Under the pieces are notes generated by a model that was not told where the DNA came from, did not search any database, and saw only the letters and a list, made by a program, of their open reading frames with translations. Positions 41,002 to 59,043 of a DNA stretch of 61,339 nucleotides are shown one piece after another. Within the stretch, counting starts at the first letter, position 1. Each line of letters opens with the position of its first letter. This stretch comes from Candidatus Omnitrophota bacterium (GTDB taxonomy: Bacteria > Omnitrophota > Gorgyraeia > Zapsychrales > Fredricksoniimonadaceae): positions 1-61,339 of the forward strand of contig CAILQW010000061.1 of the NCBI GenBank assembly GCA_903836515.1, read 5' to 3'. The translations under genes and the position numbers were made by a program.

Positions 41002-41041
41002 GGAGCGCAATTCATTGCGCCCTTTAACGCGAACCTATTCA

Positions 41042-41075
41042 TTGACGAATACAGAAGAATATACTATATTCTTCT
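41042..41075 (+). promoter_or_regulatory. Promoter with perfect 23-bp palindromic operator
   Basis: TTGACG-17-TATATT. AGAAGAATATA-C-TATATTCTTCT at 41053-41075 covers the -10. Confidence 0.72.
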
Positions 41076-41091
41076 AAGAAGGAGAATATTT

Positions 41092-41334: not shown

Positions 41335-41614
41335 TTTTAAGATCTTCGAAACACAGGATTATCTCGACCATCTTGAAGCGCTCTTGGAGAAGAAGCAAGA
41401 AGCGTTTAATAAGAAGCTTCAGGATTATGTTTACCCTCAGCTCAGAAATCAGCCGTATTTCCGAAAGAACATTAAGAAGTTGAAGGCCTGTTCGCATCCG
41501 ATGTGGCGGTATCGAGTCGGAGATATCCGCCTTTTTTACCAGGTTGACTCCTGCGGAAACGTTGTCCTCATGACAGTGGCCATGTTGCGTAAAGATTCCT
41601 ACCGTAGTTCTTAA
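41327..41614 (+). CDS. RelE/ParE-family toxin
   Basis: TTG start overlapping the antitoxin end. NIKKLK...WRYRVGDIRLFYQVD. Confidence 0.82.
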   Translation: MFNFKIFETQDYLDHLEALLEKKQEAFNKKLQDYVYPQLRNQPYFRKNIKKLKACSHPMWRYRVGDIRLFYQVDSCGNVVLMTVAMLRKDSYRSS

Positions 41615-41621
41615 TTTAAAT

Positions 41622-44279: not shown

Positions 44280-44292
44280 ACGGGGAGTGGTT

Positions 44293-45075: not shown

Positions 45076-45083
45076 CAATAGGA

Positions 45084-45105
45084 AGGGGCGTGATGAATCA
45101 CGCCC
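45084..45105. repeat. REP-like hairpin
   Basis: AGGGGCGTGA-TGAA-TCACGCCC. Same AGGGGCG...CGCCC frame as 59811-59837. Confidence 0.5.
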
Positions 45106-45250
45106 GTGCAGCCCCAGTACAACAATGCTGATCCAGCGCAAGAGACCCCGGACCTCGCTATCGATTAAGATTGGGTGAGGAGCAGGTGTTCTAAAGTACT
45201 AATATTAAGGATAATCCATATGATACTATTATTATCCTCTTTTATTATTC

Positions 45251-45403
45251 AATGATGCCAGCGAAAAGACGGGTGGTATTGATCTGAGTGCCAAGAACAT
45301 GGGTTTGGATGTCGCCATGGATCCCCGTCCGGCCGAAATGCCTGGCGGGGGCTTTCTATTTCTGAACTTTTCCAGAATCAAGCGTCATTTTGACATTATC
45401 TGA
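45251..45403 (+). pseudogene. Orphan GGIDL-type C-terminal fragment of a giant protein
   Basis: NDASEKTGGIDLSAKNMGLDVAMDP...II*. In-frame stop upstream at 45221 and no start codon before the motif. Resembles DNGGLDLS at the end of 45509-53860. Confidence 0.55.
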
Positions 45404-45508
45404 CATTATGGGTCGATAGTTAACAACGATTTCACATGGACGTCACTTCCCGGTCATACGCCAAGGATATACTCTGGCAGGCATCATTCATTGGCCTGAA
45501 AGGTATCC

Positions 45509-48500
45509 ATGCATCAATTTCTGCGTCAGGGGAGTTTGCGTCATCTCAAGCAACGGGCATGGTTTCGCCTGTTGTGTCTTACTGTGTTGGTTACTTATTG
45601 CATTGATTTGGTCGGTATGGACCTGCTTCGGACCCGTGAGGCGTATGCGCAAAGCGTGGTTGTGGCTCCCGTGCCAGGTGTGTTGCTGCCTTCTTCCGCT
45701 CCCGGATCCAGTCCGCTTCTTAAGGCCATATCCCTTGACCCGGCGGATCCGTTCAAGATCAATTTTCTCGTTGATGCCGGTGATCACGCGCGTGTCGATG
45801 AGAAGGAATCCAGCCGGCTTATAAAGTATTTTCTTACCTGTCTGACTATTCCTGAGAAAGATCTTTGGGTTAATTTGTCTCCCTCCGAACCCGGCCGTAT
45901 TGTGGATAAGAGGTTAGGTGCCACTACGGTGGGCGCGGATATGCTCAGAGAAGATTATCTGCTTAAACAATTGGCCGCGTCCATGACATTCCCCGACCGA
46001 GAGCCAGGCAAGGCATTCTGGAAACAGGTGTATGTCAGGATCAAGAAAAAATATGGTGATCTTGACCTTCCGGTGGACACCTTCAGCAAGGTATGGGTGG
46101 TGCCGGCAAAAGCTGTTGTGTACGAACAGGCAGGCAAGGCGTTTATTGCTGAAAGCCGGTTGAAGGTCATGCTGGATGAAGATTATCTGACCAACAAGAG
46201 CCATGTGACGCCTGATCAGGCACACCGTGATGATGCCGGCAAGGCCGATGATGTGTACCGGACGATCGCGCGCGAGATCATTATTCCGGAACTTGAGCGG
46301 GAAGTGAACGACGGCCAGTATTTTGCCCCGCTGCGCCAGATCTTCAGTGCGCTGATCCTGGCGATATGGTTTAAACGGAAATTGCGCCACAATATCATGA
46401 ACCGGGTATATGCCGATCAAAAGAAAACATCCGGTATCCAGACGGATGACAGGCAGGTGAGCCAGAAGGTCTATGCCCAGTATATGCTCGCGCTCAAGAA
46501 GGGGGTTTATGATGTGATCCGTGAGGATTATGACACGGATCAACAGGAGACCGTTGCACGCCATTATTTCTCCGGAGGATTTTCTTTTGAGAAAGCCGCC
46601 GGGAAGATTGATTTTGCCCAACTGTCTTCTTCGCGGGTTGACCGTTTGAAGTTACTCAAGGAAATCGGCAGTAATCTTGTCACGCTGGGTGTTTCGTTTA
46701 TCCCCAGAGGGATGCCCAAAAAGATGCTTCTGGCGTTGGCCATGGTTTCTCTTTCTTCTTCCGTTGTCCCTGCACCAGGGTTAGCTCCCAGGCAAGCCGT
46801 TGTCGCGCCTAAAGCCGTAGTTGTCAGCACAATACCCAGAGCAACACCACCACCGGTTATTGCAACAACAACGCCGGAGGCTGTTTCCGAGGCTATCATC
46901 AAAAGGGGCGACAAGATACCGGAAGCGGATCAGAAGTATCTTACTTATATGAAGGAAATGCTCACATTGAAGGATGTCCAGGATCTTCATGGAACGGTCA
47001 ACGCGTCGCTGCACATGACGTATGCGTTTGATATGACGCCGATAGAAAATAATTGGGACGCTATTTTCACGGCATCCACCATGGGCTGGCGGCAGGAAGT
47101 TGTGGTGATGACAGTCCAACAGAAGCTGGGGATTACAGCAGACGGCATCATGGGCCCAGAGACGCGTCGTGCGTTGAACGCTAAAATAGGGACGAAGGCA
47201 GCAGCTCCTGCTGGATCAGTATCTTCCCAGGTGTCGTTGCCGCAGGCCTCTAGAGGATTTTCTGTTGTGTCTGATAAAGCACCTTTTTCGATAGAGCCGG
47301 TCTCTCTGACCGCACCGAGCGGAGGTGTGGTGAATGGGTTTGATGTGCATAAGACAAAATATCGTAAGGGAGAGCCTATTCTTAAGGTATTGGATCCTGG
47401 CCTTGCGCAACAAATAGCTGCGTTAAAAGGGCAATTAAGTCCACTGCAGCAGCGGCTCAAGCGATTAAAGGCGTTGCAAGCGGCGCATCCGGGGGCCATT
47501 ACAGACATTGAGATCACAACAGCGGGTCTTGAGGTTCAAAATATCTCGCAGCAGTTGGCGCCGTTGATCCAGATCGAACAGGCAGGAGTTCTCAGGGCGC
47601 CTTATGATTTTCTTATCAAAGAGATCCGTGTGGGTAATGGACAAACGGTGTCCTCCAAGACAGTTTTGCTCGATTATCTTTCCGGGCAAATGCCAAGCTT
47701 TACGCTCAGGATGACTCGGGAAGAATCCCAAAACCTGGATCATAAGCGCATCACCATTGACGGCCAGCCTGTCACCTCGAACCCCAAGCTGGATATCCGC
47801 ATTGATCCCTTGAAGCCTAGCGAGGCGCTTGTTACATTCGTTGTGACGACAGCGTTGGATATTCAGGCCGGGAGTGTGCATCAGGTGAAGGTGGAGGTGC
47901 CGGCTTCTGTGGCGGATGACGGACTTGCGCTGGTGAAGGGAGTGGCTCATACAACCGCCAAAGTCGGATCATCCCCGGAGATACCGGTTGTTACTCTTGG
48001 AGCAGGTCCTGTCAACATCCTTGTCAGGCCCGGGCAAGAGGTTTTTCAGGGGCAGGTGGCGGCTATTCAACCTGGGGCCGCACAAGCCTGGCATGCGACC
48101 AAACTTTTGTATGACCAGGTGGATGTTCAGCTCAAGGAGAGGACTTCCGGCAATGGGGTCTATTTTACAACCACTCAAACGATGCCGCTGGAAACAAGAA
48201 GGGCTTCCTTGAAGGCGCAATTGCAGGCACAAGGTGAGGCTGTTGGCCGTTCTTTCATTAAAGCGCCTTGCAACGGTACGGTGACGACGGTGTCGTTATC
48301 AGGCGCTTTTACGCCGGGGAGCGAAATCTTCCGTTTAAATGGCCCTGTCCGTATCGGTGATCTGAATGATCCCAAAGGGGCGATCTTTGTGTCGGGCCTA
48401 TTGGATATCAAGAACGGTGATCCTGTCCTTGTGCGGACAGGATCGGGAAGGAATATCCCTGCCAGGATCACGAATATCAATAAGATGCCTGTAAGCCCGG

Positions 48501-51500
48501 GCATGGATCTTCAGGGCCTTCAGTCCCTTGAGGTGACGGCTATGGATCCGGATCATTATTTAGGCCTTAATATGCGGGTCACGGTCATTGTGCTCACAGA
48601 TGCCGAGAAATTACTTGTTGCGAAGAAGTTGGTGCCAGCCATGAAAGGGCAGCCCAGCCAGCGCACGGTCGCCGCGATGACGCCGGTGCCAGGATCAGAG
48701 CCACCCAGGAAAAAGACCGTTCCGATGCCGGAACCTGTAGACCTTGTTGGGCCGATTCAGACGGCCGCTTTATCGCCTGCCGCGATGGCCTCCGTCCCGC
48801 CAGCAGCGCCCCAGGTTCCATCGGTTTCAAACATGGCATTCTTTCAGAATATGCCTGTAGAATTTACTCCATCAACGGAGCAGGAAGTCGAGATCGGCAA
48901 AGTGGGACGTAATATTGAGGCATTGAAGAAGCTGGTGGGTGACCTCCAGGACGCCAGTCGCGTGCTTGCGGCCAGAGAGGCGGTAGCGCTTGCGCTTACG
49001 TCCGAAAAGGATGGGTTGAATCTGAAGATCCAGCATGTCGGTCAACGGCTTGCTGATGCAGAGGATCATAAGCGCCTTCTCATGGATAATATGGGTCAGA
49101 CTGATGTTGAAAAGAAAGATTCACGTTTCCACTGGGATGGCCAGTTCCCCCGTTTTTACACCGACAAGAAAGGCGCCTTTGATCCTCCATCCTCGTATTT
49201 AAATTGGAATATGTCCTTTGCTGAAAGGAGGGCGGTCAATGACATGAAGGCTTTGAGCGTGCTCATCAGACAGCAGAACAGTACATGTGATTCCAATCGT
49301 CGGGCTTTGGAGGAACAAAGCCGGATTTTACGGAAGGATCAACTGGTTGATCTGCGCGAGAAAGTGACGGATAGCGTCCTTAGATTGAACGAGCTCAAGG
49401 CGCAATATTTTAAGGCATGCTTGTTGGTTAGAGGGCACCTTTGGGACAGTAATAACTGGGGGGCCCCCCGCGTGCCGGCAGAGGCGGGACAACAGGTAAC
49501 GGAGCCCCGGCAACAGGCACCGGTCGTCCAGGCTGTGCTGGCCGCGGTTACAGAAGCGGTGGGTGCACCGCGACCTGCACCAGTGTATCATCCGAAAACA
49601 TCAGTCAGGCATCCTGATGAAGGTATTTCGTTGGCACAGCCGCGCATGTCATCGACGGTCAAGCCGCCTGGCGACGGTTTTATGGGTACGGGAGTTGTGT
49701 CGTATGATGAAAGCCCGTTGGCGGGGGCAACAGGCGCGGACGGCGAAGTTAATCTGGCACTTTTTGTCCATGACCCCAATCCTCTGGTGCGGATGGAGGG
49801 ACTGGATCTTTTCTTACAGCAAGGGCAGGGTTTGAATTTTATCGCCAATGCCCGGCAGGCTGTCCTGACGAGTCCGTTTCCTGATGTCCAGGCCAGGATA
49901 TTAGGTTATATGGTCGAGAGGAAGGATGCGGGCCTGCGTTTTGTGGTGAGCGTCCTTGATGAGGCGATCAGGAAGAAGCAATGGCCTCTCGTTGAAATTG
50001 GCTTCCAGTCCCTGTCGGACATTCTGGCCCAGGACCCGGCGTTGAAGCAACATGTGTCCGATCTGAATTATGCCTCAGGAACGCCGCTGAGCTCTTTGGT
50101 TCCTGTTGCACCGGAAGGGGCGCGCAAGGTTTTGCTGACGTTCTTGTCCCGTGACGGTGGACGTTCAAAGGCCGGGATAAATTTGTTGCGTCATATGCCC
50201 TCAGATCAGCTGGATCAGATATGTCATACGCTGGAATCATCCGGGGATCCGCGTTGGGGCCAACTTAAGGGGCTTCTCTTGAGCGAGATCATGCGCCAGG
50301 AAGCTGGCCACGGGATCGAGGATATCCAACCAGGTCCTTTCCAGGAGTATTCAACCGCTTACACCTGGGCGGATCAGATGACTTTTTTCCTGTATCATTC
50401 ACCGGAAGGGTTAAAACATATTAACGAGGATTTCCTCAAGGCATCACCGCACGGGGCTGATCCGCAAGGATATCTCCCTCAATGGTTGCGGGATAGGGCG
50501 TTAAAAGGTGTGCAAAAGCGTCTGGCATCAGCGCCTCCGTTGGCGGCGTCTTCCTTGATATATGATCTTCCTCCCGGGTTCGGGAATGCTGTCAATGCAC
50601 TGGCTGATTTTAACAGCCTTCTTGTCGATGCCCGGCAAAAAGATATTTTGCAAACCCAGAATATTGAAAAGCTTGGGCGTATCTTCGCGTCGTCGACTGT
50701 GCACAGCCGCTTGGCGCTTGACAAGTTGATGAAGACACCGGCAGGCATTATTCGGGCCCTGCAGGCTTATGCCGGATCAAAAGACCCGGAAGTGCGTAAA
50801 CTGATGAAAAACCACGCGGCCGATGTTCTGGCCATGAATAATGTCATTAATCCCTTGGATTGCCTTTCCATGCCGATCCGTAATATCCCGGATCCCGTTT
50901 CCATGGGGATCCTGCGCCATGCGTTGGAGCAATTGTATCAGGAGACCAACGACCCTGAGTTTTTGAATCTTCGCCTAAAGACGTTTGGCTTCATTGAACT
51001 GAGCACCGCAAAGGATCCCCGCGGGCAACACAAAGTCGGTGAGCAGATCGAGGCGGAGGCGATACGGCTGTCCTTGGCGTTGCTGGACATGATCAAGCCG
51101 TATTATGTGCCTTTGAGTTCTATTATCAGTGGCCAACATACCTACGACTCTGGCGTGCAGTCGGTTATCGATGACCTGGGCAACAGGATCAATGCGGGAG
51201 ATCCCCGGGAAGTGTCGCGTTATCTGGAAGAGGTCCAAAGAAATGGCGGCGGGGACAAGAAACAATTCGCTAACGATATCAATTCCTGGGAAAAGGCGTT
51301 TGTTTCGAGGATTTCAAGGAATGATCAGGGTGTCCAGGGTATGCCTCTCTGGAATGTTGTTGCTGCGCTTGGCGCTATCGGCTTTGTCCTTAGCACCATG
51401 AAGAAGAATTTGTACAATATGTTTTTCCTGAAGTGGACAAGCATCGCAGGCCTTCGCAGAATGGTGGAGAAAGATTTAATGAAGCCTGAATATTGGATCA

Positions 51501-53860
51501 AGGCAGGCAAGAAGACTGACGCTAGCATGCGAAATCAGCTGTCTTTGTTTGAGGTCCGTAAGATTCCCGATGAGAAGGGCTTCTTTTATAAGGATACGGG
51601 TGATTCTTTGAAACAGTGGGCCGGGATCCTGGGTGGATGGAGCAAGCCCGGTCAGACAACACCGCAAAGTCTTATCCAGGGGTTCAATGATATCCTTAAC
51701 AATGTGGCAAAGATCCTTTATCAGTTGCCGTATACTCCGCAACTCATGGGTGTCCCTGATGCACATGGGGCTTACCTTGATAGAACGTATATCAATGCCT
51801 TGAGTTTTTTTATCACGCTGACAGAGGACACGTTAACAAATCTTGACACTCTCATGCAGCCTGAAATTCTACACGCATTGAGCCCTTCTCAACGGCAGGT
51901 ACTTTCCCGGGACAGGGGTATTCTGGTGGAAAAGGTGGGGTATGCTATCGAGTTTCTGGCTATCCTTGAATTGCGCGGGGTTATGGACAAATGGATCGGC
52001 GAGAAACGTGCGAATGATCACAAGCTGGAAAAGGGAGGTTTTTTCCCGTTCCTGCGAACGTTGCTTTTTCGCGGTACGGGATTGTTAGAGAAAAAATTGT
52101 TCAAGAGATTGCCAGGCCTTTTGGAAAAGGGTGAGGCGTTGATGCCAGGATTGTATCCAGCTGATACGCAGGAAGCCATGGTTTTGCGTAGTCAGGAAAT
52201 ATTTGACGCGATGGAAGCGAATGGAACTACTATGGGGGGGCATGTGCTGCCAGGAACATCCGACACGTTGACACAGAACAGTACGTGGCGGCAGGCACGT
52301 ACAGCCATAGTGTCTCTTGCGGTCGTGGCGGGGGTTGTCTTGTCCTTCGGCAGGTCGTCTACGTTGCCCGCTATTGTGGTTGCGTTTTTGGGCCTGTTCC
52401 TTTATATGATACCGAATATCAAGCTTGCGTCATTGGGCTGGGAGACGGTCTCGCATGTTCTTATCAGGAAACTTGACGCCGCTTTGACCATGTCACTGGG
52501 GCCGGCGCCCAGGGAGAGCAATGGTGACGCTAAAGCCGTGATCATCAAGGCCGCGTTGCAGGAAGCTGATGAACGGCTTAAGGAGGCGTTGGCGGCACAA
52601 AAGCCGTACGTGGATATGGTCGTGATCGTTCCGCAAGACGGTAGCCTTGTGAACAATCTGGATACTTATGTGGCTGCCCGCCGCGGGAAGATCTTCAGGC
52701 ACGATGTGCCGGTTGAAGTGATGGCGCCACAAAGGACAGGCAGTGCGAATCTCAATTTTGAGGTCATGCAGCTGGTGGAGGAGAAATTAAGGGACACTAA
52801 ATTTCTGGAAGAATATCCTTACCTTAAGGACCGCGCGTTGGAGGATATACGGGTGATGGTGGTGTTGCATGGCAACAATGAGGTTCAGCATGACAAGATC
52901 CTGGATCTGGCTATTGTGAACGGGTATCGCATTTTTGCGGTGATGCCTCAAGGGCAAGGCGGGTATGTGCTCATGTACAGCCGGGACGCCTATCTTGGCC
53001 CCGTGCCTGAAGCCATCGATCAGCCGTTAAGTGTGTTTGGTCATTGGGTGGGCGAGGATGGGTTGATGACATTGGGCCTGTTGGACCTGATCAAGAAAAG
53101 AGTCCTCGAAAAACTGAATATCAAGAAGTTGAAAAAGACCGCAGGCGATGCTGATTCTTATGGCGGTTCAGTACTGAAATATCTGGGTGCTCATTTTGAT
53201 TTGTCTAAAGAGCAGTTAGAGCAGTATCCCGGAGGGATCGGCATAACGGTTTTTAATCCTTCAACAGTTTCGATCCTTGCAAAGATTTTGCATCAATTGC
53301 AAAAAGATCCTGATCTTTGGGATAAGTTAAATCTGCAGATGACCCTGGATATTATCGATGTTCTCAAAATATCTTCGCAAGCCGAACGGCAAAAATATAT
53401 TAACAAACGGATCACGCTTCCAGATATTGAGCAAGAATATGCCGTTAAAGATCCAGAAAGGGTGCGGCTTCTTTTGTCTGCGTTTTATGGGATGTTCAAT
53501 GGGCCTTCGATTCCCTTTACTGATTTCCTTCCGCATCCCGGCGCCGCGGTGGTGAAGCATCTTAAAACAGCTGAAGATCGGGACGCCATCCTGCGCTTGT
53601 TGCAAGGCTGGCGCGATGACGCCGCCGCGCTTGTCCCTGTCCAGGCAAGTGTCCCTGTGCAAATCGATAATGGCGGGCTTGACCTTTCACGGGCGCAGGA
53701 CCAGATTGAATGGCGTGGCGGTCACGCGCCTGAGGCCCCCTCATTGGATCCGGTTTATTCCGGGCATGCGGTCCAATTCCTTCAGCTTTTCCGTGGTTTT
53801 GATTTTCGCATCACAGCCTCCCAGCCGCTTGAAGATCCCAAGGTATTTTTAGGCTTTTAA
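45509..53860 (+). CDS. Giant 2783-aa mosaic protein (conserved leader domain, PG-binding-like motif, two MFP-like modules, helical repeats, TM segments, GGLDL tail)
   Basis: Uninterrupted 8.35-kb ORF. LWVNLSP...DYLLKQLAAS...FWKQVY...TFSKVWVVP leader, QQKLGITADGIMGPETRRAL, two lipoyl-hairpin-lipoyl patterns. Confidence 0.9.
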   Translation: MHQFLRQGSLRHLKQRAWFRLLCLTVLVTYCIDLVGMDLLRTREAYAQSVVVAPVPGVLLPSSAPGSSPLLKAISLDPADPFKINFLVDAGDHARVDEKESSRLIKYFLTCLTIPEKDLWVNLSPSEPGRIVDKRLGATTVGADMLREDYLLKQLAASMTFPDREPGKAFWKQVYVRIKKKYGDLDLPVDTFSKVWVVPAKAVVYEQAGKAFIAESRLKVMLDEDYLTNKSHVTPDQAHRDDAGKADDVYRTIAREIIIPELEREVNDGQYFAPLRQIFSALILAIWFKRKLRHNIMNRVYADQKKTSGIQTDDRQVSQKVYAQYMLALKKGVYDVIREDYDTDQQETVARHYFSGGFSFEKAAGKIDFAQLSSSRVDRLKLLKEIGSNLVTLGVSFIPRGMPKKMLLALAMVSLSSSVVPAPGLAPRQAVVAPKAVVVSTIPRATPPPVIATTTPEAVSEAIIKRGDKIPEADQKYLTYMKEMLTLKDVQDLHGTVNASLHMTYAFDMTPIENNWDAIFTASTMGWRQEVVVMTVQQKLGITADGIMGPETRRALNAKIGTKAAAPAGSVSSQVSLPQASRGFSVVSDKAPFSIEPVSLTAPSGGVVNGFDVHKTKYRKGEPILKVLDPGLAQQIAALKGQLSPLQQRLKRLKALQAAHPGAITDIEITTAGLEVQNISQQLAPLIQIEQAGVLRAPYDFLIKEIRVGNGQTVSSKTVLLDYLSGQMPSFTLRMTREESQNLDHKRITIDGQPVTSNPKLDIRIDPLKPSEALVTFVVTTALDIQAGSVHQVKVEVPASVADDGLALVKGVAHTTAKVGSSPEIPVVTLGAGPVNILVRPGQEVFQGQVAAIQPGAAQAWHATKLLYDQVDVQLKERTSGNGVYFTTTQTMPLETRRASLKAQLQAQGEAVGRSFIKAPCNGTVTTVSLSGAFTPGSEIFRLNGPVRIGDLNDPKGAIFVSGLLDIKNGDPVLVRTGSGRNIPARITNINKMPVSPGMDLQGLQSLEVTAMDPDHYLGLNMRVTVIVLTDAEKLLVAKKLVPAMKGQPSQRTVAAMTPVPGSEPPRKKTVPMPEPVDLVGPIQTAALSPAAMASVPPAAPQVPSVSNMAFFQNMPVEFTPSTEQEVEIGKVGRNIEALKKLVGDLQDASRVLAAREAVALALTSEKDGLNLKIQHVGQRLADAEDHKRLLMDNMGQTDVEKKDSRFHWDGQFPRFYTDKKGAFDPPSSYLNWNMSFAERRAVNDMKALSVLIRQQNSTCDSNRRALEEQSRILRKDQLVDLREKVTDSVLRLNELKAQYFKACLLVRGHLWDSNNWGAPRVPAEAGQQVTEPRQQAPVVQAVLAAVTEAVGAPRPAPVYHPKTSVRHPDEGISLAQPRMSSTVKPPGDGFMGTGVVSYDESPLAGATGADGEVNLALFVHDPNPLVRMEGLDLFLQQGQGLNFIANARQAVLTSPFPDVQARILGYMVERKDAGLRFVVSVLDEAIRKKQWPLVEIGFQSLSDILAQDPALKQHVSDLNYASGTPLSSLVPVAPEGARKVLLTFLSRDGGRSKAGINLLRHMPSDQLDQICHTLESSGDPRWGQLKGLLLSEIMRQEAGHGIEDIQPGPFQEYSTAYTWADQMTFFLYHSPEGLKHINEDFLKASPHGADPQGYLPQWLRDRALKGVQKRLASAPPLAASSLIYDLPPGFGNAVNALADFNSLLVDARQKDILQTQNIEKLGRIFASSTVHSRLALDKLMKTPAGIIRALQAYAGSKDPEVRKLMKNHAADVLAMNNVINPLDCLSMPIRNIPDPVSMGILRHALEQLYQETNDPEFLNLRLKTFGFIELSTAKDPRGQHKVGEQIEAEAIRLSLALLDMIKPYYVPLSSIISGQHTYDSGVQSVIDDLGNRINAGDPREVSRYLEEVQRNGGGDKKQFANDINSWEKAFVSRISRNDQGVQGMPLWNVVAALGAIGFVLSTMKKNLYNMFFLKWTSIAGLRRMVEKDLMKPEYWIKAGKKTDASMRNQLSLFEVRKIPDEKGFFYKDTGDSLKQWAGILGGWSKPGQTTPQSLIQGFNDILNNVAKILYQLPYTPQLMGVPDAHGAYLDRTYINALSFFITLTEDTLTNLDTLMQPEILHALSPSQRQVLSRDRGILVEKVGYAIEFLAILELRGVMDKWIGEKRANDHKLEKGGFFPFLRTLLFRGTGLLEKKLFKRLPGLLEKGEALMPGLYPADTQEAMVLRSQEIFDAMEANGTTMGGHVLPGTSDTLTQNSTWRQARTAIVSLAVVAGVVLSFGRSSTLPAIVVAFLGLFLYMIPNIKLASLGWETVSHVLIRKLDAALTMSLGPAPRESNGDAKAVIIKAALQEADERLKEALAAQKPYVDMVVIVPQDGSLVNNLDTYVAARRGKIFRHDVPVEVMAPQRTGSANLNFEVMQLVEEKLRDTKFLEEYPYLKDRALEDIRVMVVLHGNNEVQHDKILDLAIVNGYRIFAVMPQGQGGYVLMYSRDAYLGPVPEAIDQPLSVFGHWVGEDGLMTLGLLDLIKKRVLEKLNIKKLKKTAGDADSYGGSVLKYLGAHFDLSKEQLEQYPGGIGITVFNPSTVSILAKILHQLQKDPDLWDKLNLQMTLDIIDVLKISSQAERQKYINKRITLPDIEQEYAVKDPERVRLLLSAFYGMFNGPSIPFTDFLPHPGAAVVKHLKTAEDRDAILRLLQGWRDDAAALVPVQASVPVQIDNGGLDLSRAQDQIEWRGGHAPEAPSLDPVYSGHAVQFLQLFRGFDFRITASQPLEDPKVFLGF

Positions 53861-54178
53861 ATCAGTAGTTTATTTTCGTCATAGGTCAGCGCTTAAAAGT
53901 TGAGTGCGGCTTAATATTATTTGTTTTCACAAGAAATTCACTTTAAGGTCACGCGCTGTTCATATCGGGCGGGTAGACTTGTTGTTAAGAAAGGAGTGTG
54001 CGTTATGGGTACCAACAGGATGATCAAAAGCAGGTTGAACAGGTTTTTTGACGGCGGATCGATTTCAGAGTGGCATGCTGACAGGCCCGTTGATTCGTGG
54101 CCGACGGTGGCGCGGATACCACACAGTCGTTTTTGTTCCGACACGCAACGGGGTGGGGTTAATATGCAGGGAGAAGTT

Positions 54179-54388
54179 ATGCTGAAAAAATCTGATGCTG
54201 ATCTGTTGGGGGATCCTCGTGTCAGGAAGGAGATTGAGCGTTACAAGTGGGTTGAGAGCGAGAAGGCTGGTTACGATATCGGCATGGCCAGGGCGAACCG
54301 CGAATGGTTGACCTCATGTGCTGAAGCCTGGAAGAAGATGAACCAGCCACGCAAACGCGTGGTGCGCAAGGCTGCTAAAGTCAATTAG
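54179..54388 (+). CDS. Small protein, DUF4032-like motif
   Basis: EIERYKWVESEKAGYDIG...EW. Alternative in-frame starts at 54164 and 54005 (AAGGAG RBS). Confidence 0.6.
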   Translation: MLKKSDADLLGDPRVRKEIERYKWVESEKAGYDIGMARANREWLTSCAEAWKKMNQPRKRVVRKAAKVN

Positions 54389-54427
54389 CGAGCGAGAATA
54401 TCTCTATGAGGATGTCGATTTGTAAAA

Positions 54428-54480
54428 GTTCACACGTTTGTCACATGGATGCCATCATTTTGACAAATGTTTTCTATATT
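54428..54480 (+). promoter_or_regulatory. Putative Pho-box array and -10 element
   Basis: 11-bp-spaced units GTTCACA (54428), TGTCACA (54439), TGCCATC (54450), TGACAAA (54461), then TATATT at 54475, upstream of the porin-pst genes. Confidence 0.6.
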
Positions 54481-54537
54481 CTTGTGTAGAAAGATCCGTG
54501 TGGGTCTTTGGAAAAGCGGGATAAAAAAGGAGAATGT

Positions 54538-55863
54538 ATGCGAAAAGGATTGTGGGCAAGTGTGGTGTTGTGGGGGGCGGCATTGTTGTGCGCTATGCCG
54601 ACAGCCTATGCGGGGGAAGTGGATCTTCTTGTTCAGAAATTGGTCGAGAAAGGTGTCCTCTCGGCGAATGAGGGTCAGATCCTATTGGATGAGACCAAGC
54701 AGGATGTGGCCAAGCAAAATGCCAAGGGCACCAATGACGCGATCCCAGCCTGGGTACAGACCACGAAACTCAAGGGTGATTTTCGTTTCCGGTATCAGCA
54801 TGATCATGCCAAGAGGCTGGCCACGACCAGCAATAACCCTGATACGGACCGCACCCGCATCCGTATGCGCCTGGGGTTGGAAACAAAGCCTAATGACAAG
54901 CTGCTCGTTGGCATTGGGTTGTCGACTGGCAAGGATGATTTGACCACAGAGTCTGCAGACCAGTCGCGTTCCACCAATCAAACGTTGACCGATGGGTTTT
55001 CCAAGTATGCCCTGGCGCTGGATTATGCTTTTGCCCAGTATACGCCTGTTTCGTGGGCTACACTTTATGCGGGTAAATTCAAGAGCCCCTTGTGGGAACC
55101 GGGCGACCTTATCTGGGATACGGATATCAATCCTGCGGGCGGAGCGCTTAAGCTTGATTATCAGCTGGCACCCAGCCTGGATGTATTCCTTAATACAGGT
55201 GTTTTGACCATCGCGGAAGTAACAAGCGCGTCCACCAAGAAATGGGCGAGTCCCACCATGTATGTGGCTCAGCCGGGAGTTGTTGTTGATTTGTCCGATA
55301 CGGTGAGCTTGAAGAGTGCCGTTGCTTATTACACCCACACAGGGATCAATAATAAACAGTTGTATGGTTCTGCGGGAACCAATACCAATACGACAGGAGC
55401 CTCTACCGGGTTGTTGTTGTACAAATATACAGAAGTCAATCCTTCGGCTGAGTTGAGTTTCAAGGAGCCGTTGAAGGCTTTTGGGATAGGTCTTCCGTAT
55501 TTTAGTTTATTTGGGGAGTATGTGGAGAATATCGCCGTGAAAGACCGTAATACAGGGTATATGGGCGGGTTTAAGGTGGGTGCTGAAAAAATCGCGGCTT
55601 TTGGCGATTGGCAGTTTAGGTATAATTATGCCATGCTGGGCCGGGACGCCGTCCTGGACATCCTGCCTGATTCTGATCGTTACAGCGGGAAGACAGGTAT
55701 GAGGTCGCATGAAGGCATGCTGGATTTCGGCCTGGGAAAGAATACCTGGCTGGGGCTTGATTATTACTATGGATGGCAGTTGCCCGGTAGTGTTCAGCCC
55801 AGCGGTGCGACTCAGACCAAGCCGGCCAGTGAGTATCAGGTTGATTGGAATATGAAGTTCTAA
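54538..55863 (+). CDS. Putative outer-membrane porin
   Basis: RBS AAGGAG, signal peptide, KLKGDFRFRYQ...RIRMRLG, alternating beta strands, C-terminal aromatic WNMKF. Confidence 0.82.
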   Translation: MRKGLWASVVLWGAALLCAMPTAYAGEVDLLVQKLVEKGVLSANEGQILLDETKQDVAKQNAKGTNDAIPAWVQTTKLKGDFRFRYQHDHAKRLATTSNNPDTDRTRIRMRLGLETKPNDKLLVGIGLSTGKDDLTTESADQSRSTNQTLTDGFSKYALALDYAFAQYTPVSWATLYAGKFKSPLWEPGDLIWDTDINPAGGALKLDYQLAPSLDVFLNTGVLTIAEVTSASTKKWASPTMYVAQPGVVVDLSDTVSLKSAVAYYTHTGINNKQLYGSAGTNTNTTGASTGLLLYKYTEVNPSAELSFKEPLKAFGIGLPYFSLFGEYVENIAVKDRNTGYMGGFKVGAEKIAAFGDWQFRYNYAMLGRDAVLDILPDSDRYSGKTGMRSHEGMLDFGLGKNTWLGLDYYYGWQLPGSVQPSGATQTKPASEYQVDWNMKF

Positions 55864-55871
55864 CGCAGGTG

Positions 55872-55909
55872 TGCCGGGGCGGCTCTGTGGGGCCGCTCCG
55901 GCATCTTTT
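55872..55909 (+). terminator. GC-rich hairpin between the porin and pstS (weak terminator or mRNA stabiliser)
   Basis: TGCCGGGGCGGC / GCCGCTCCGGCA followed by TCTTTT. Confidence 0.45.
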
Positions 55910-55934
55910 CCCAATGGAATCTGAAGGAGAAAAT

Positions 55935-56807
55935 ATGAAATTATTATCGAAATTTACAATGATCTTGTCGGGTCTTGTGGTGATGACGACGGCGGCATCA
56001 GCGGAAATGATCCAGATCAAAGGGTCGGATACGATCATCAACCTGGTCCAGAAAGAGGCCGAGGTTTACATGCAGGAAAATCCTGGCGTCAAGATATCTG
56101 TCACGGGTGGCGGCTCCGGGACAGGGCTTGCGGCGCTGGTGAACAAGAAATGTGCGATCGCCGATGCTTCCCGTGCGATCAATGCGAAGGAACTCGAGGC
56201 AGCTACGACCAATGGCGTCAACCCCAGCCGTATTGTGATCGCGTTCGACGCGCTGAGCATCATTGTGAATTCCGGCAATCCTGTGAAAGTATTGACTAAG
56301 GACCAGGTCGGCGCCATTTATCGTGGCGAGATCAAGAATTGGTCTGAAGTGGGTGGCAGCGACATGCCGATCAACCTGTATGGCCGCCAGTCCAATTCAG
56401 GGACGTATGGCTTTCTGCAGGAAATGGTTTTGAAAGGCAATTATTCATCCAAAATGAATACCATGAATGGCAATTCACAGATCGTGGAAGCTGTCAAAGC
56501 GGATCCGTCGGGCATCGGTTATATCGGTGTTGGTTATGCCAAACAGGCCACAGGGGTGAACATCCTTGATATTAACGTCAGTAACGGCCAGCCGGCTGTT
56601 AGTCCTGTTGACAAACCTGCTGTCATGTCCGGGAAATATCCGATCGCGCGTCCTTTGTATCAGTATGTTAATGGTAGTCCCGCTGGGACTGTCAAGGCGT
56701 TCATCCAGTTCGAGTTGAGCGCTGAAGGCCAGAAGATCGTCGAAGAAGAAGGGTTCTATGAGATCCCTGCCGAGTATAAAGAAGCCAATGCCAGGTTTGG
56801 GCTTTGA
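55935..56807 (+). CDS. pstS: Phosphate ABC transporter substrate-binding protein
   Basis: RBS GAAGGAG, signal peptide, IKGSDT, GGGSGTG, ASR, GRQSNSGTY, YPIARPLY. Confidence 0.94.
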   Translation: MKLLSKFTMILSGLVVMTTAASAEMIQIKGSDTIINLVQKEAEVYMQENPGVKISVTGGGSGTGLAALVNKKCAIADASRAINAKELEAATTNGVNPSRIVIAFDALSIIVNSGNPVKVLTKDQVGAIYRGEIKNWSEVGGSDMPINLYGRQSNSGTYGFLQEMVLKGNYSSKMNTMNGNSQIVEAVKADPSGIGYIGVGYAKQATGVNILDINVSNGQPAVSPVDKPAVMSGKYPIARPLYQYVNGSPAGTVKAFIQFELSAEGQKIVEEEGFYEIPAEYKEANARFGL

Positions 56808-56827
56808 GCGTTTTTGATAATGATGCG

Positions 56828-56865
56828 AAAACGGGCAGGCTCGAATATCAGCCTGCCCGTTTTTT
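56828..56865 (+). terminator. Intrinsic terminator after pstS
   Basis: AAAACGGGCAGGCT / AGCCTGCCCGTTTT 14-bp stem followed by a T run. Confidence 0.8.
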
Positions 56866-56937
56866 AATACAGCACATTGCTAGTCTTACGATAAGGTTCT
56901 TTGAAGAAATTGAGTGCAAAGAAGGTGCGATGTTAAT

Positions 56938-57126
56938 ATGTCGGAGAGAAATAAAGAAGCATGGGCTACGCCGCAGTTGATCCTCCTGGTGAGGGGTGGA
57001 AACAGTGGGGCAGAGCGCGTTTTATCTGGATGCAAGTTTCAATCATGGATTATTGCGGGGAATGCGGTTGATTGGGATGGTTGTGAGACGAGTTGCCAGC
57101 TTTGCCTTGATAGGACGCCATCGTAA
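56938..57126 (+). CDS. 62-aa Cys-rich RiPP-precursor-like peptide
   Basis: MSERNKEAWATPQLILLVRG...ERVLSGCK...C-x3-C-x2-C...PS. AAGGTG upstream, AT-rich insert. Confidence 0.62.
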   Translation: MSERNKEAWATPQLILLVRGGNSGAERVLSGCKFQSWIIAGNAVDWDGCETSCQLCLDRTPS

Positions 57127-57295
57127 GATAATCTGAAAGAGAAAAGTTCTCCATAGACCGATGGTGTCAAAGATGTTCAGTGGTAGTTCGTTCAATACGG
57201 CCTCCTGCGCGCAATAGTGCTTGATATGGTTTTAAATAGCAGAACATCCTGATAAAATCGGGTAGCAATAATACTGTTTCAAAATAAGAGGTTTC

Positions 57296-58174
57296 ATGAA
57301 TCGTAGGATCAAGGAAAAGATCATTGAAGGGTTCTTTTTTTTGAACGGGATCATCGTTATCGGTATCCTGGTGGGGATCTTTGTGATCCTTGTCAGGAAT
57401 GCCTGGCCCGCGTTCCATGATGTCAGCATCGGGGACATGATCAGGTGGCCCAACTGGAATCCTGATGCCTATACCACCCCGACCTACGGTGTTTTGCCCA
57501 TGCTTATGAGTACGCTCATGGTGACGCTGGGGTCACTGGCGGTGGCGGTTCCTGTCGGGATCGGCGCGGCCGCGTACCTTTCGGATGTCGCCAGCCCCCG
57601 CGTGCGTGAGATCGCCAAGCCTGTTGTCGAGATACTGGCCGGTATCCCGTCGGTTGTGCTGGGGTTCCTGGGGATTGTCCTGGTGGGTCCTATGATCTGC
57701 AAATTAACGGGAAGATACAATGGCCTCAATGCGGTTAACGGCTCGATCCTTCTGGCCGTGATGGCCTTGCCCACCATCATCAGCCTATCCGAGGACGCTT
57801 TGGGCAGTGTCCCGCGTTCTTATGAGGAAGCTTCCCTGGCTTTGGGTGCCAATAAATGGCAGACCGTGATCAACGTCAAGATCCCGGCCGCGGCATCGGG
57901 GATCCTGGCCGCGTGCATGCTGGGCATGGGGCGGGCTATTGGCGAGACCATGACTGTCCTGATGGCGACGGGGAATGCCGCCGAGTTCCCGGGGAGTTTT
58001 CTGGGGCCGGTTAAGACCATGACCGCCACCATTGCGATCGAACTTGGCGAGGTCGCCTATCACACGACCCATTATTACATGCTCTTCGTGGTCGGGTTGA
58101 TGCTCTTCATTATCACGTTCTTTATCAACCTTGCTGCGGATGTTTTCTTTCACAAGCATACGAGGGCGCACTGA
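57296..58174 (+). CDS. pstC: Phosphate ABC transporter permease
   Basis: YGVLPMLMSTL, VEILAGIPSVVLG, EEASLALGA, GMGRAIGETM. Confidence 0.95.
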   Translation: MNRRIKEKIIEGFFFLNGIIVIGILVGIFVILVRNAWPAFHDVSIGDMIRWPNWNPDAYTTPTYGVLPMLMSTLMVTLGSLAVAVPVGIGAAAYLSDVASPRVREIAKPVVEILAGIPSVVLGFLGIVLVGPMICKLTGRYNGLNAVNGSILLAVMALPTIISLSEDALGSVPRSYEEASLALGANKWQTVINVKIPAAASGILAACMLGMGRAIGETMTVLMATGNAAEFPGSFLGPVKTMTATIAIELGEVAYHTTHYYMLFVVGLMLFIITFFINLAADVFFHKHTRAH

Positions 58175-59043
58175 TGAAGGCCGGCTCGTTGCGTGTCATC
58201 GAATGGTTGGGGTTCATGGCCTTGCGGGCTTGCATGTGTTTCGTGGTGCTCATTCTTGTTGTTGTTTTTTACGATATTATCACTAAGGGAATCGGGATCA
58301 TATCCTGGGAATTCCTGACACAGCCGCCTTTGGACGGGATGACCAAGGGCGGTATTTTTCCGGCGATCATCGGGACACTTTTTGTCACGATCATCGCAGG
58401 CCTTCTGGCTGTTCCGCTGGGCATGGGTTGCGCGATCCATCTTAACGAATATGCCCGTGATAACGGCCTGACGCGGTTCATCCGCATGGCCATTCGCAAC
58501 CTTTCCGGCGTGCCGTCGATCGTTTACGGGCTTTTCGGGGTGGCGTTGTTCGTCGAAGCGGCCCATTTTGGCACATCTATTTTGGCTGCGGGATGCACGC
58601 TGGGATTGATGACACTGCCGGTCACGATCACAGCGAGTGAAGAGGCGTTAAAGACAGTACCGCGTGCTTACCGTGAAGGGGCGCTGGCGCTGGGCGCGAC
58701 CAAGTGGCAGTCGATCTGGGGCAATGTGCTGCCGTACGCGGTGCCCGGAATGCTGACGGGCGCGATTCTGGGAATATCCCGCGCGGCGGGAGAGACAGCG
58801 CCGATCCTGTTCACGGGGGCGGCGTTCTTTTTGCCAGATATACCAAATTCGCTGTTTAGTCAGTTCATGGCCTTGCCGTATCATTTGTATATCATGTCCA
58901 CCCAGCATCATAATATCGTGCTGGTGAGGCCCATCGCCTATGGTACGGCGCTGGTCCTGATCGTCCTGGTCTTTACGTTGAATTTGGCGGCGGTAATGTT
59001 GCGTTATCATTTGAGAAAAAAAGGGATCGCTCATGGACAATAA
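58174..59043 (+). CDS. pstA: Phosphate ABC transporter permease
   Basis: [46 protein letters not shown]. Confidence 0.95.

What the first reader, a model, noticed from the sequence alone, without database searches (positions are those of the whole stretch)
56866..57295. Orphan Cys-rich RiPP-like precursor inserted between pstS and pstC
Seen: in a 430-nt AT-rich gap after the pstS terminator lies a 62-aa ORF with a leader W-x-x-P-x-L (WATPQLILLVRG...ERVL) and a core with four Cys (CK...C-x3-C-x2-C). No modifying enzyme is in the window. Established: [YW]xxPxL leaders are bound by RRE/PqqD domains in lasso and radical-SAM RiPP pathways. From memory, W..P.L..LVRG...E.VL..CK peptides occur beside PqqD + radical SAM/SPASM cassettes in anaerobes (unverified). 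Inference: a dispersed precursor modified in trans into a thioether-crosslinked peptide, perhaps one of several.
Basis: partly seen in the sequence, partly recalled or inferred. Interest (0 to 1): 0.7.

Follow-up and report, generated by a model that had tools for sequence, protein, structure and literature searches.

The report
Stray RiPP precursor gene in pst operon
A 62-codon gene that no gene caller annotated, lying between the phosphate-transport genes pstS and pstC, is an intact stray copy of a large, unnamed family of cysteine-rich peptide precursors whose modifying enzymes lie on another contig of the same genome bins.

Summary
Window 56938-57126 (+) encodes the 62-aa peptide as described, in a 488-bp pstS-pstC gap.

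It is not a chance ORF. A profile trained only on unrelated loci scores it at E = 8e-14. The next best of 1068 window segments scores 0.18.

It belongs to a large unnamed family with at least 1480 called proteins, all labelled 'hypothetical', and no Pfam or NCBIfam model. Members share the leader K-K-x-W-x-x-P-[EQ]-L-I-V-L-V-R-G...E-x-V-L-x-x-C-K. The core is variable, usually has 4 Cys, and ends in C-x5-Ser.

In metagenomes these genes sit a median 118 bp from a conserved cassette of three radical SAM/SPASM enzymes, a PEPCK/HprK-fold 'ScmC-like' protein, PqqD and an S24/S26-type peptidase.

The window has none of these genes. A cassette contig with four paralogous precursors occurs in the same four ENA+NCBI assemblies as the window contig. 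It also shares a private repeat with the window's gap.

Related species have gaps of 130-179 bp, so about 336 bp (56867-57202) is an insertion.

Translation, thioether chemistry and a PqqD gene in this genome remain unshown, and this organism's system shows signs of decay.

The parts
55935..56807 (+). pstS, the phosphate ABC transporter substrate-binding protein (290 aa as called elsewhere)
   Evidence: NCBIfam TIGR02136 scores 237 bits against a cut-off of 206.6. The gene call and Pfam PBP_like_2 hit appear in identical contigs.
56828..56865 (+). Intrinsic terminator of pstS: a 14-bp perfect stem, an 8-nt loop and a T-run
   Evidence: Inverted repeat I2 has arms 56828-56841 and 56850-56863, 100% complementary, and the sequence is. 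It is conserved in relative L106 with a compensatory T-A to C-G change in the stem. The simple scan did not list it.
56867..57202 (+). Inserted segment of about 336 bp, absent from related species. It carries the precursor gene and the left part of a cassette-associated repeat.
   Evidence: In alignment A4 with L105 and L106, homology stops after the terminator T-run and resumes at about 57203. blastn gives limits of 56865 and 57218/57268. Gaps in relatives are 179, 130, 130 and 130 bp, with one of 289 bp.
56921..56927 (+). Shine-Dalgarno-like GAAGGTG, 10 nt before the ATG
   Evidence: Read from the sequence. Paralogues have GAGGTG at 5 nt and AAGGAGG at 6 nt, so the window's spacing is 5 nt longer than in paralogue b.
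56938..57126 (+). Precursor peptide gene of 62 aa plus stop, not called by any gene caller
   Evidence: Searches give the ORF. Family HMM E = 8.4e-14. The leader is 24/33 identical to P0002. Across leader codons 1-21 against paralogues, dS is 0.40-0.41 and dN is 0.10.
56938..57036 (+). Conserved leader region, codons 1-33: MSERNKEAW-ATP-QL-ILLVRG-GNSGAERVLSG-CK. It includes the W-x-x-P-x-L motif and the family's conserved Cys-Lys.
   Evidence: Alignment A5 has W, P, L and the first Cys invariant, and R, G, E, V, L and K at 90% or more. The W-to-CK offset is 23 here, against 21 in 81 of 88 members.
57037..57123 (+). Variable core, codons 34-62: FQSWIIAGNAVDWDG-C-ETS-C-QL-C-LDRTP-S, ending in the family's C-x5-Ser
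   Evidence: Across 88 members, the last Cys is followed by exactly 6 residues in 71, the C-terminal residue is Ser in 73 (plus 5 Thr), and 60 have four Cys.
57147..57210 (+). Left part of a repeat of about 110 nt (42-nt core at 57161-57202) otherwise found only in this organism's cassette contig
   Evidence: The local alignment score is 44, against a maximum of 32 in 2000 shuffles. Copies lie at L099 4927, 9024 and 9850, with 8, 9 and 12 substitutions. The four-way alignment is A6. There is no other copy in the window or in any other of the loci held when each scan was run. It has no significant RNA fold (z = 0.76) and no Rfam hit.
57203..57295 (+). Native pstC upstream region, with a promoter-like site (TTTAAA-16-TGATAAAAT, 57231-57258) and the pstC ribosome-binding site
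   Evidence: The region is shared with L105. The promoter-like match is and is a consensus match only.
57296..58174 (+). pstC, the phosphate ABC transporter permease
   Evidence: NCBIfam TIGR02138 scores 277.5 bits against a cut-off of 196.45.

Best explanation
The ORF is a genuine, intact paralogue of a widespread family of ribosomally made peptide precursors.

Shown: about 336 bp carrying the gene, its ribosome-binding site and part of a cassette-specific repeat is present just after the pstS terminator and absent from related species. Shown: the family's genes normally lie inside a conserved cassette. That cassette holds three radical SAM/SPASM enzymes, a PEPCK/HprK-fold P-loop protein (ScmC-like, often fused to one radical SAM enzyme), a PqqD-type leader-binding protein and an S24/S26-type peptidase, often with a GNAT domain. 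An NTP_transf_5 nucleotidyltransferase is frequently present too. Shown: a version of this cassette, with four more precursor paralogues, lies on another contig found in the same four assemblies as the window contig.

Inferred mechanism:
1. The peptide is translated from read-through or operon transcripts of pstS-pstCAB, and so probably when phosphate is scarce.
2. Its W-x-x-P-x-L leader is bound by the PqqD protein.
3. The radical SAM/SPASM enzymes act on the four-Cys core, most likely forming Cys-derived cross-links.
4. The HprK-like protein modifies the conserved C-terminal Ser, by analogy with lasso-peptide kinases. The nucleotidyltransferase may extend that modification.
5. The peptidase removes the leader.

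In this reading the window copy is a substrate encoded away from its enzymes, as the scattered prochlorosin precursor genes are (from established knowledge).
For: ORF and motifs.

Family membership: HMM E = 8.4e-14 with no competitor in the window.

Family size: 88 non-redundant members from a DNA scan and 1480 called proteins at E <= 1e-3.

Features that were not part of the search pattern are conserved: CK in 86/88, four Cys in 60/88, and C-x5 to the C-terminus in 71/88, ending in Ser in 63 of those (Ser is C-terminal in 73/88 overall). The window ORF has all of them.

Coding signal in the leader: dS 0.40-0.41 against dN 0.10 versus paralogues.

Cassette linkage. PqqD passes the Pfam cut-off, and Radical_SAM, Peptidase_S24, GNAT and NTP_transf_5 are found.

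ScmC-like fold: the AF2 model has pLDDT 90.7. Foldseek matches PEPCK at E = 3e-7 and HprK/P at 2e-5, and the P-loop core aligns to HprK.

Same genome: the cassette contig and the window contig both occur in ERZ1426847, ERZ1426688, ERZ1426625 and ERZ1426660, and in the same metagenomes. Each ERZ1426xxx accession seen holds a single PstC variant, as a genome bin would. A private repeat is shared.

Insertion.

Analogy for C-terminal Ser modification: PMC8498205.
Against: There is no expression or peptide data, and no gene caller predicted the ORF.

No sigma-70-like promoter was found between the strong pstS terminator and the ATG. The SD-to-ATG spacing is long, at 10 nt.

The W-to-CK spacing is 23, where 81 of 88 members have 21.

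The organism's cassette looks eroded. Precursor a is frameshifted in independent assemblies, and precursor b is frameshifted in some assemblies. Two toxin-antitoxin pairs, an AAA_14/DUF4143 gene and a transposase-like remnant interrupt or flank it.

No PqqD or S24/S26 peptidase gene is seen in the 12.4 kb available. The three radical SAM enzymes have no N-terminal domain that could replace PqqD.

Tetranucleotide composition does not tie the cassette contig to the window (r = 0.775).

I could not confirm from metadata that the ERZ1426xxx records are genome bins. The chemistry is entirely inferred.
Confidence: 0.62

Rival explanations
1. The ORF is a stranded relic. A piece of the cassette region was copied into the pstS-pstC gap by illegitimate recombination. 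The ORF is still open but is not expressed or processed and is on its way to decay.
For: The cassette in this organism shows erosion: precursor a is frameshifted, precursor b is polymorphic for a frameshift, and toxin-antitoxin, AAA_14 and transposase-like genes are inserted. No PqqD or peptidase gene was seen. The window copy deviates in leader spacing (23 against 21) and has an unusual C2-C3 gap of 3. It lies behind a strong terminator with no promoter-like site and has a lengthened SD spacing. All 20 long loci from other organisms keep precursors next to cassette genes.
Against: The ORF retains every family hallmark, including the exact C-x5-Ser-stop ending inside a core that is otherwise hypervariable. 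It has an SD-like site. Leader differences from paralogues are mostly synonymous. All three radical SAM enzymes keep CxxxCxxC, and the ScmC-like proteins keep the P-loop.
Confidence: 0.3
2. The insertion matters for the pst operon rather than for the peptide. It changes spacing, read-through or promoter activity between pstS and pstCAB, and the ORF is a passenger.
For: The insert sits exactly between the pstS terminator and the native pstC promoter-like region. Its right end is part of a repeat that lies about 65-130 nt upstream of genes in the cassette contig.
Against: Only the left part of the repeat is present, without its promoter-like portion. The native pstC upstream region is retained. 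No RNA family or stable fold was found. This reading does not explain the preserved coding features.
Confidence: 0.05
3. The ORF is a chance open frame in an AT-rich spacer.
For: The ORF is short, uncalled, and sits in a low-GC intergenic region.
Against: HMM E = 8.4e-14, against 0.18 for the next best segment. It shares the leader with hundreds of cassette-linked genes.
Confidence: 0.01

Closest known systems
SynChlorMet (SCM) cassette of TIGRFAMs/NCBIfam (ScmC TIGR04249, ScmD TIGR04248, ScmE TIGR04250, ScmF TIGR04251)
   Same: It has the same parts list: PqqE-like radical SAM/SPASM enzymes, a PqqD relative and an ScmC-type protein. The precomputed Pfam family PF27840 (ScmC) hits this cassette's proteins. 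The SCM models are among the hits.
   Different: All scores are far below the curated cut-offs: ScmC 25-44 against 125 bits, ScmD 24 against 100, and ScmE/F 58-89 against 400. This cassette has three radical SAM enzymes, often an S24/S26 peptidase with GNAT and an NTP_transf_5 gene, and an identifiable precursor family. As I recall, unverified, the SCM description says its precursor was not identified.
Lasso peptides with PqqD-type leader recognition and HPr-kinase-like tailoring (paeninodin, pseudomycoidin)
   Same: The leader motif is [YW]-x-x-P-x-L, with faint profile similarity to lasso leaders (rhodolasso NF033534, E = 0.022). A discrete PqqD protein is present, along with an HprK-related P-loop protein and an NTP_transf_5-type nucleotidyltransferase. 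The C-terminal Ser is nearly invariant, matching the residue that lasso kinases phosphorylate (PMC8498205).
   Different: The score is below the lasso family cut-off (14.5 against 30 bits). The conserved maturases are radical SAM/SPASM enzymes. A lasso cyclase and B2 protease were not among the conserved cassette genes identified, but they were not searched for specifically. The core is Cys-rich.
Sactipeptides and ranthipeptides (subtilosin/AlbA, SCIFF, PapB-type)
   Same: These have Cys-rich cores processed by radical SAM/SPASM enzymes, aided by a PqqD-like recognition element. StsB, AlbA and PapB models are among the hits to the cassette enzymes.
   Different: None of these models comes near its cut-off (for example StsB 62-85 against 625 bits and PapB 44-50 against 340). 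This cassette has three separate maturases, a kinase-fold partner, a rigid C-x5-Ser terminus and a conserved Cys-Lys at the leader-core junction. No cross-link chemistry is known for it.
Prochlorosins (dispersed lanthipeptide precursor genes served by one enzyme; from established knowledge, not tested here)
   Same: Many paralogous precursors share a conserved leader and have hypervariable cores. Some are encoded far from the modifying enzyme.
   Different: The enzyme class and organism group are different. Here only one dispersed copy is documented, and its processing is unproven.

Membership tests
Unnamed precursor family (K-K-x-W-x-x-P-[EQ]-L...L-V-R-G...V-L-x-x-C-K leader, C-x5-Ser core) | Significant match to a family profile built without this organism's copies | tested here: met
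   E = 8.4e-14 (47 bits). The next best of 1068 window segments scores 0.18.
Unnamed precursor family (K-K-x-W-x-x-P-[EQ]-L...L-V-R-G...V-L-x-x-C-K leader, C-x5-Ser core) | Invariant W, P and L of the leader, and the Cys-Lys junction | tested here: met
   The window ORF has W9, P12, L14, C32 and K33, which fall in invariant or >=90% columns of A5. CK occurs in 86/88 members.
Unnamed precursor family (K-K-x-W-x-x-P-[EQ]-L...L-V-R-G...V-L-x-x-C-K leader, C-x5-Ser core) | Fixed spacing of 21 residues from W to CK | tested here: not met
   81/88 members have 21 and the window has 23. Its paralogues have 20, 21 and 24. The difference lies in a Gly-rich linker.
Unnamed precursor family (K-K-x-W-x-x-P-[EQ]-L...L-V-R-G...V-L-x-x-C-K leader, C-x5-Ser core) | Four Cys, with the last Cys followed by five residues and a C-terminal Ser | tested here: met
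   The window has C-x16-C-x3-C-x2-C-LDRTP-S-stop. In the family, 60/88 have four Cys, 71/88 have C-x5-end and 73/88 end in Ser.
Unnamed precursor family (K-K-x-W-x-x-P-[EQ]-L...L-V-R-G...V-L-x-x-C-K leader, C-x5-Ser core) | Gene lies next to the radical SAM/SPASM-ScmC-PqqD cassette | tested here: not met
   There is no cassette gene in the 61-kb window, nor in about 11 kb further downstream in a longer identical contig. Elsewhere the median distance is 118 bp.
Unnamed precursor family (K-K-x-W-x-x-P-[EQ]-L...L-V-R-G...V-L-x-x-C-K leader, C-x5-Ser core) | Cassette present in the same genome | tested here: inconclusive
   The cassette contig occurs in the same four ENA+NCBI assemblies and shares a private repeat. 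PqqD and the peptidase were not seen, binning metadata were not available, and composition is uninformative.
Unnamed precursor family (K-K-x-W-x-x-P-[EQ]-L...L-V-R-G...V-L-x-x-C-K leader, C-x5-Ser core) | Peptide is translated and post-translationally modified | not testable with these tools
   This needs Ribo-seq, peptidomics or co-expression.
SynChlorMet cassette (TIGR04248-TIGR04251) | Cassette proteins reach the curated equivalog cut-offs | tested here: not met
   ScmC scores 25-44 against 125 bits in seven ScmC-like sequences (L007 ScmC, five other loci, and the L008 fusion protein, which gave no ScmC hit among its best 25). ScmD scores 23.6 against 100, and ScmE/F score 58-89 against 400.
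Lasso peptides | Precursor reaches a lasso precursor model cut-off | tested here: not met
   The best score is 14.5 bits against a cut-off of 30 (NF033534), for two family members. The window ORF gives no hit.
Lasso peptides | Lasso cyclase (asparagine-synthetase-like) and B2 protease in the cluster | not tested
   The conserved genes identified are radical SAM, ScmC-like, PqqD, S24/S26 and NTP_transf_5. I made no dedicated search for a cyclase.
Sactipeptides / ranthipeptides | Maturase reaches a named maturase model cut-off (AlbA, StsB, PapB) | tested here: not met
   Scores are 44-85 bits against cut-offs of 340-850.
Sactipeptides / ranthipeptides | Cys sulfur-to-carbon thioether cross-links in the product | not testable with these tools
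   This needs mass spectrometry or NMR of the modified peptide.
HprK-type peptide kinases acting on a C-terminal Ser | HprK/PEPCK-fold P-loop domain | tested here: met
   NCBIfam HprK_rel_B E = 4e-7 and hpr-ser E = 9e-5, both below cut-off. Pfam Hpr_kinase_C E = 7e-4. The PDB HprK alignment covers the P-loop. Foldseek matches PEPCK at 3e-7 and HprK/P at 2e-5, with TM about 0.5 on the target.
HprK-type peptide kinases acting on a C-terminal Ser | Phosphorylation of the precursor's C-terminal Ser | not testable with these tools
   The only support is the conserved C-terminal Ser or Thr (78/88 members) and the literature analogy.

The most novel reading that the evidence does not exclude
The family and its cassette define an undescribed class of ribosomal peptide natural products found in many uncultured anaerobic bacteria and in Methanotrichaceae archaea. 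Three radical SAM/SPASM enzymes would build cross-links on a four-Cys scaffold, and a PEPCK/HprK-fold enzyme would modify the invariant C-terminal Ser. In this organism one precursor would have been captured by the pst operon, so that a member of the class is made specifically under phosphate starvation.
Probability: 0.25. Interest if true: 0.8.

Novelty: new variant of a known kind. Interest (0 to 1): 0.6.

Why it matters
Radical SAM-dependent ribosomal peptides are a known kind of system, but this family has no name.

- It has no Pfam or NCBIfam model.
- All 120 listed hits (of 1480) carry either no name or 'hypothetical protein'.
- Many copies, including this one, are not predicted as genes at all.

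The cassette is conserved across phyla and across the bacteria-archaea divide. It combines three radical SAM/SPASM enzymes with a kinase-fold protein, and it comes with a rigid C-x5-Ser peptide end. Together these give a concrete, testable route to new peptide chemistry.

The window copy adds two further points. Precursors of this family can be encoded far from their enzymes, so cluster-based genome mining would miss them. One has also landed inside a phosphate-starvation operon, which suggests a simple experiment on when it is made.

If the system in this organism turns out to be decaying, the locus is instead a clean example of how such gene families scatter and die.

Tried and rejected
- Pfam and NCBIfam scans of the ORF and of nine typical family members gave no family. 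The only signals were faint lasso-leader similarity.
- A word-indexed protein search with the single ORF found nothing.
- Exhaustive phmmer gave one true homologue, P0002, and one spurious repeat protein, P0001.
- Rfam on 55500-58500 gave no hit.
- The RNA fold of the region downstream of the ORF is not better than shuffles.
- The antisense ORFs over the repeat (window 57043-57195 minus strand, and L007 4600-4875 minus strand) look similar at their N-termini. Their differences are mostly non-synonymous, so I read the block as DNA-level repeat homology rather than coding sequence.
- The terminal inverted repeat around the ORF (9 nt perfect, 23 nt at 74%) is within chance expectation, so there is no evidence for a transposon-like element.
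- Tetranucleotide comparison of the cassette contig with the window was uninformative.
- Polymorphism analysis of the ORF was impossible, because all available copies are identical.
- A search with the cassette's ScmC did not return the query protein itself. The exact-sequence look-up worked instead.
- The alignment of seven precursors was too diverse for the locus finder, so I used a hand-made degenerate DNA pattern.
- Literature searches for SynChlorMet, ScmC, TIGR04248-51, SPASM with HPr kinase and PqqD, PF14907 with radical SAM, and Methanothrix RiPPs found nothing relevant.
- The organism's taxonomy could not be established, because names are withheld for its proteins.
Full report
**The observation.** Window 56938-57126 (+) is an ATG-initiated ORF of 62 codons that encodes MSERNKEAWATPQLILLVRGGNSGAERVLSGCKFQSWIIAGNAVDWDGCETSCQLCLDRTPS. 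It lies in a 488-bp gap between two genes that pass NCBIfam curated cut-offs: pstS (55935-56807) and pstC (57296-58174). pstA, pstB and phoU follow. pstS ends in a perfect 14-bp hairpin with a T-run at 56828-56865. The gap is 40-48% GC, against 54.8% for the window. The gap is 100% identical in four independent assemblies over its full length and in two more over the part they hold. No gene caller predicted the ORF in any of them.

**Is it more than chance?** Pfam, NCBIfam and a word-indexed protein search gave nothing. An exhaustive phmmer search of 1.8 billion representatives gave one true relative, P0002 (67 aa). It is 24/33 identical over the leader and unrelated in the core. P0002 lies immediately upstream of an ScmC-family gene and a radical SAM gene, on a contig from the same metagenome as a window-identical contig.

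A scan of representative genomes found one more locus, in a Methanotrichaceae MAG. It holds at least three such peptides behind a cassette of PqqD, an S24/S26-type peptidase with GNAT, and three radical SAM/SPASM enzymes, one of them fused to an ScmC-like domain.

I then wrote a degenerate DNA pattern covering only [KR][KER]xWxxP[QE]L[IV]x[LV][VA]RG and scanned JGI metagenome contigs. It matched 90 stretches. Translating them showed that nearly all continue with motifs that were not in the pattern...P-E-E-x-V-L-x-x-C-K, then a variable core of 17-47 residues.

In 88 non-redundant members:
- CK is present in 86.
- 60 have exactly four Cys.
- The last Cys is followed by exactly six residues in 71.
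- The C-terminal residue is Ser in 73 and Thr in 5.
- The offset from W to CK is 21 in 81.

An HMM trained without this organism's copies scores the window ORF at E = 8.4e-14. The next best of 1068 stop-to-stop segments in the window scores 0.18. A profile search of the large protein collection found 1480 called members at E <= 1e-3. None of the 120 listed has a Pfam domain, and each is either unnamed or named 'hypothetical protein'.

**The cassette.** tblastn with the cassette proteins shows a conserved neighbourhood:
- a radical SAM/SPASM enzyme fused or adjacent to the ScmC-like domain;
- a second radical SAM/SPASM enzyme;
- one or more precursors;
- PqqD;
- an S24/S26-type peptidase, with or without GNAT;
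- a third radical SAM/SPASM enzyme;
- often an NTP_transf_5 nucleotidyltransferase.

Of 71 loci with a validated member, 52 contain a cassette gene, at a median distance of 118 bp. The 19 without one are contigs under 3 kb, apart from one 6.4-kb contig with the peptide at its end. All 20 loci of at least 7 kb have cassette genes.

The ScmC-like protein has 1171 relatives at E <= 1e-20. Every listed one that carries a name is called either 'hypothetical protein' or, for fused forms, a radical SAM/SPASM-domain protein. They come from Chloroflexi, Desulfobacterales, Aminicenantes, Poribacteria, Omnitrophica, WOR-1, WOR-3 and Methanotrichaceae. Its P-loop core aligns with HPr kinase. A confident AlphaFold model (pLDDT 90.7) matches PEP carboxykinase (E = 3e-7) and HprK/P (E = 2e-5).

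All cassette proteins hit the SynChlorMet models ScmC, ScmD, ScmE and ScmF, but far below their curated cut-offs. The cassette is therefore a relative of that bioinformatically defined system, not a member of it.

**Is the window copy an orphan, and are the enzymes in the same genome?** The window has no cassette gene. A longer identical contig shows none for about 11 kb beyond pstC either.

An exact-sequence look-up of the ScmC-like protein next to P0002 found its contig in ERZ1426847, ERZ1426688, ERZ1426625 and ERZ1426660. These are exactly the four ENA+NCBI assemblies that hold the window contig. It is also in the same metagenome assemblies. Each ERZ1426xxx accession seen holds a single PstC variant, as genome bins would.

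The longest version of the cassette contig, L099 (12.4 kb), carries the following in order:
- a transposase-like remnant;
- PMT_2;
- NTP_transf_5;
- a radical SAM enzyme;
- MazEF;
- precursor a, which is frameshifted;
- AAA_14/DUF4143;
- precursor b;
- the ScmC-like gene;
- a radical SAM enzyme;
- precursor c;
- a RelE/HTH pair;
- a radical SAM-ScmC fusion;
- precursor d.

A 42-nt block just downstream of the window ORF (57161-57202) matches L099 at three places, with 8-12 substitutions. It occurs nowhere else in the window or in any other of the loci held when each scan was run. This ties the window's insert to that cassette region. Composition alone is uninformative.

**The insertion.** Contigs from related species are 81-85% identical in DNA and at least 90% identical in PstC. 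They have the same porin-pstS-pstCAB-phoU order but gaps of 179 bp (L105) or 130 bp (L106, plus the P0127 and P0129 contigs, for which only gene tables are held).

The alignment shows homology through the pstS terminator, including a compensatory stem change. It then breaks at about 56866 and resumes at about 57203. So about 336 bp was inserted: the SD-like site, the ORF and the left part of the repeat. The native pstC upstream region, with its promoter-like site, is kept. I found no transposon-like ends.

**How it most likely works.** Shown: family membership, linkage of the family to the cassette, the insertion, and co-occurrence with a cassette contig.

Inferred:
- The leader is bound by PqqD. 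The motif resembles lasso leaders, with faint profile similarity at E = 0.022, and PqqD is adjacent to precursors in most loci.
- The radical SAM/SPASM enzymes modify the four-Cys core, probably by Cys-derived cross-links.
- The HprK-fold protein acts on the conserved C-terminal Ser. HPr-kinase homologues do this in lasso peptide pathways, where a nucleotidyltransferase can extend the phosphate (PMC8498205).
- The S24/S26-type peptidase removes the leader.

Because the ORF lies on the operon strand behind the pstS terminator and has no promoter-like site of its own, expression would depend on read-through. It would therefore be tied to phosphate limitation.

**Doubts.** This organism's system may be decaying.
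- Precursor a is frameshifted in independent assemblies.
- Precursor b varies in a G-run and is frameshifted in some assemblies.
- Selfish elements interrupt the cassette.
- No PqqD or peptidase gene is seen in the 12.4 kb available.
- The radical SAM enzymes have no N-terminal domain that could replace PqqD.
- The W-to-CK spacing of this organism's copies is 20, 21, 23 and 24, where the family is almost fixed at 21.
- The window copy's SD-to-ATG spacing is 5 nt longer than in paralogue b.

Against decay, the window ORF keeps the exact C-x5-Ser-stop ending and all four Cys. Its leader differs from paralogues mostly at synonymous sites, with dS 0.40-0.41 against dN 0.10. I put a functional or recently functional trans-encoded precursor at about 0.6 and a stranded relic at about 0.3.

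**Comparison and novelty.** The kind of system, a radical SAM/SPASM-modified ribosomal peptide with PqqD-type recognition, is known. This family is not in Pfam-A or NCBIfam (June 2026). The names that sources give its proteins say nothing about function. I found no paper on it. I rate it a new variant of a known kind. The stray copy in the pst operon is the unusual feature of this window.

Noticed in passing
window 40700-54520: A second insertion of about 13.8 kb relative to related species. In L105 and L106 the HAMP-HisKA histidine kinase gene is directly followed by the porin-pstS genes. In the window they are separated by an SNF2-family helicase (41622-44279), a 268-aa ORF and a 2783-aa protein with no Pfam hit (45509-53860).
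   Followed up: partly
L099 4880-5000, 8980-9130, 9800-9955; window 57147-57210: A repeat of about 110 nt occurs three times in the cassette contig, each time ending 0-100 nt before the start of the next gene (AAA_14, RelE-like, radical SAM-ScmC fusion). It contains a promoter-like TTGA[TC]G-18-GAAAAT. Only its left half is in the window. Its function is unknown.
   Followed up: partly
L007 4615-4789; L018 4683-4860; L099 4701-4875: Precursor paralogue a carries the same frameshift after LVRGG in assemblies from different projects (ENA and JGI). It is therefore a real pseudogene or a recoding site, not an assembly error.
   Followed up: partly
L007 6261-6464; L018 6329-6397; L099 about 6347-6420; L101/L102: Precursor paralogue b varies in the length of a G-run within the leader. 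The intact forms are P0002, P0143 and P0144, while L018, L099 and L100 read LVRGGG-stop. This is either homopolymer sequencing error or phase-variation-like switching.
   Followed up: no
L008 6258-10183 (Methanotrichaceae MAG CAZHNU010000008.1): Segmental duplications each carry the 3' end of the third radical SAM gene plus a precursor, giving at least three precursor copies. One has a disrupted C-terminus. A further leader-like trace lies near 9290-9530.
   Followed up: partly
L053 465-1825: Five tandem, nearly identical precursor genes lie within 1.4 kb. They differ mainly in the last one to three residues (…CSVVS, …CSVTP, …CSAVPI, …CSVVD, …CSVVPG).
   Followed up: no
L041, L046, L071, L096 (GC 68-72%): A high-GC clade of precursors (MDEPTRRAWSxPELIVLVRG…) sits near PqqD-like genes, but no radical SAM or ScmC homologue is detectable within up to about 12 kb.
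   Followed up: no
window 56828-56865 versus L106 2890-2928: The pstS terminator hairpin is conserved between species, with a compensatory stem change (GGCT/AGCC versus GGCC/GGCC) and a different loop.
   Followed up: no
window 20-6376 and 26767-29298 (minus strand): A 2118-aa protein carries two Lysostaphin_N-type stretches, and an 843-aa STT3-like oligosaccharyltransferase homologue is also present. Neither is related to the finding.
   Followed up: no
L099 2-136: The left end of the cassette contig encodes …AYGYRDDEYMKLKIIQ…, which looks like the C-terminus of a transposase (from memory). This would explain why assemblies break there.
   Followed up: no
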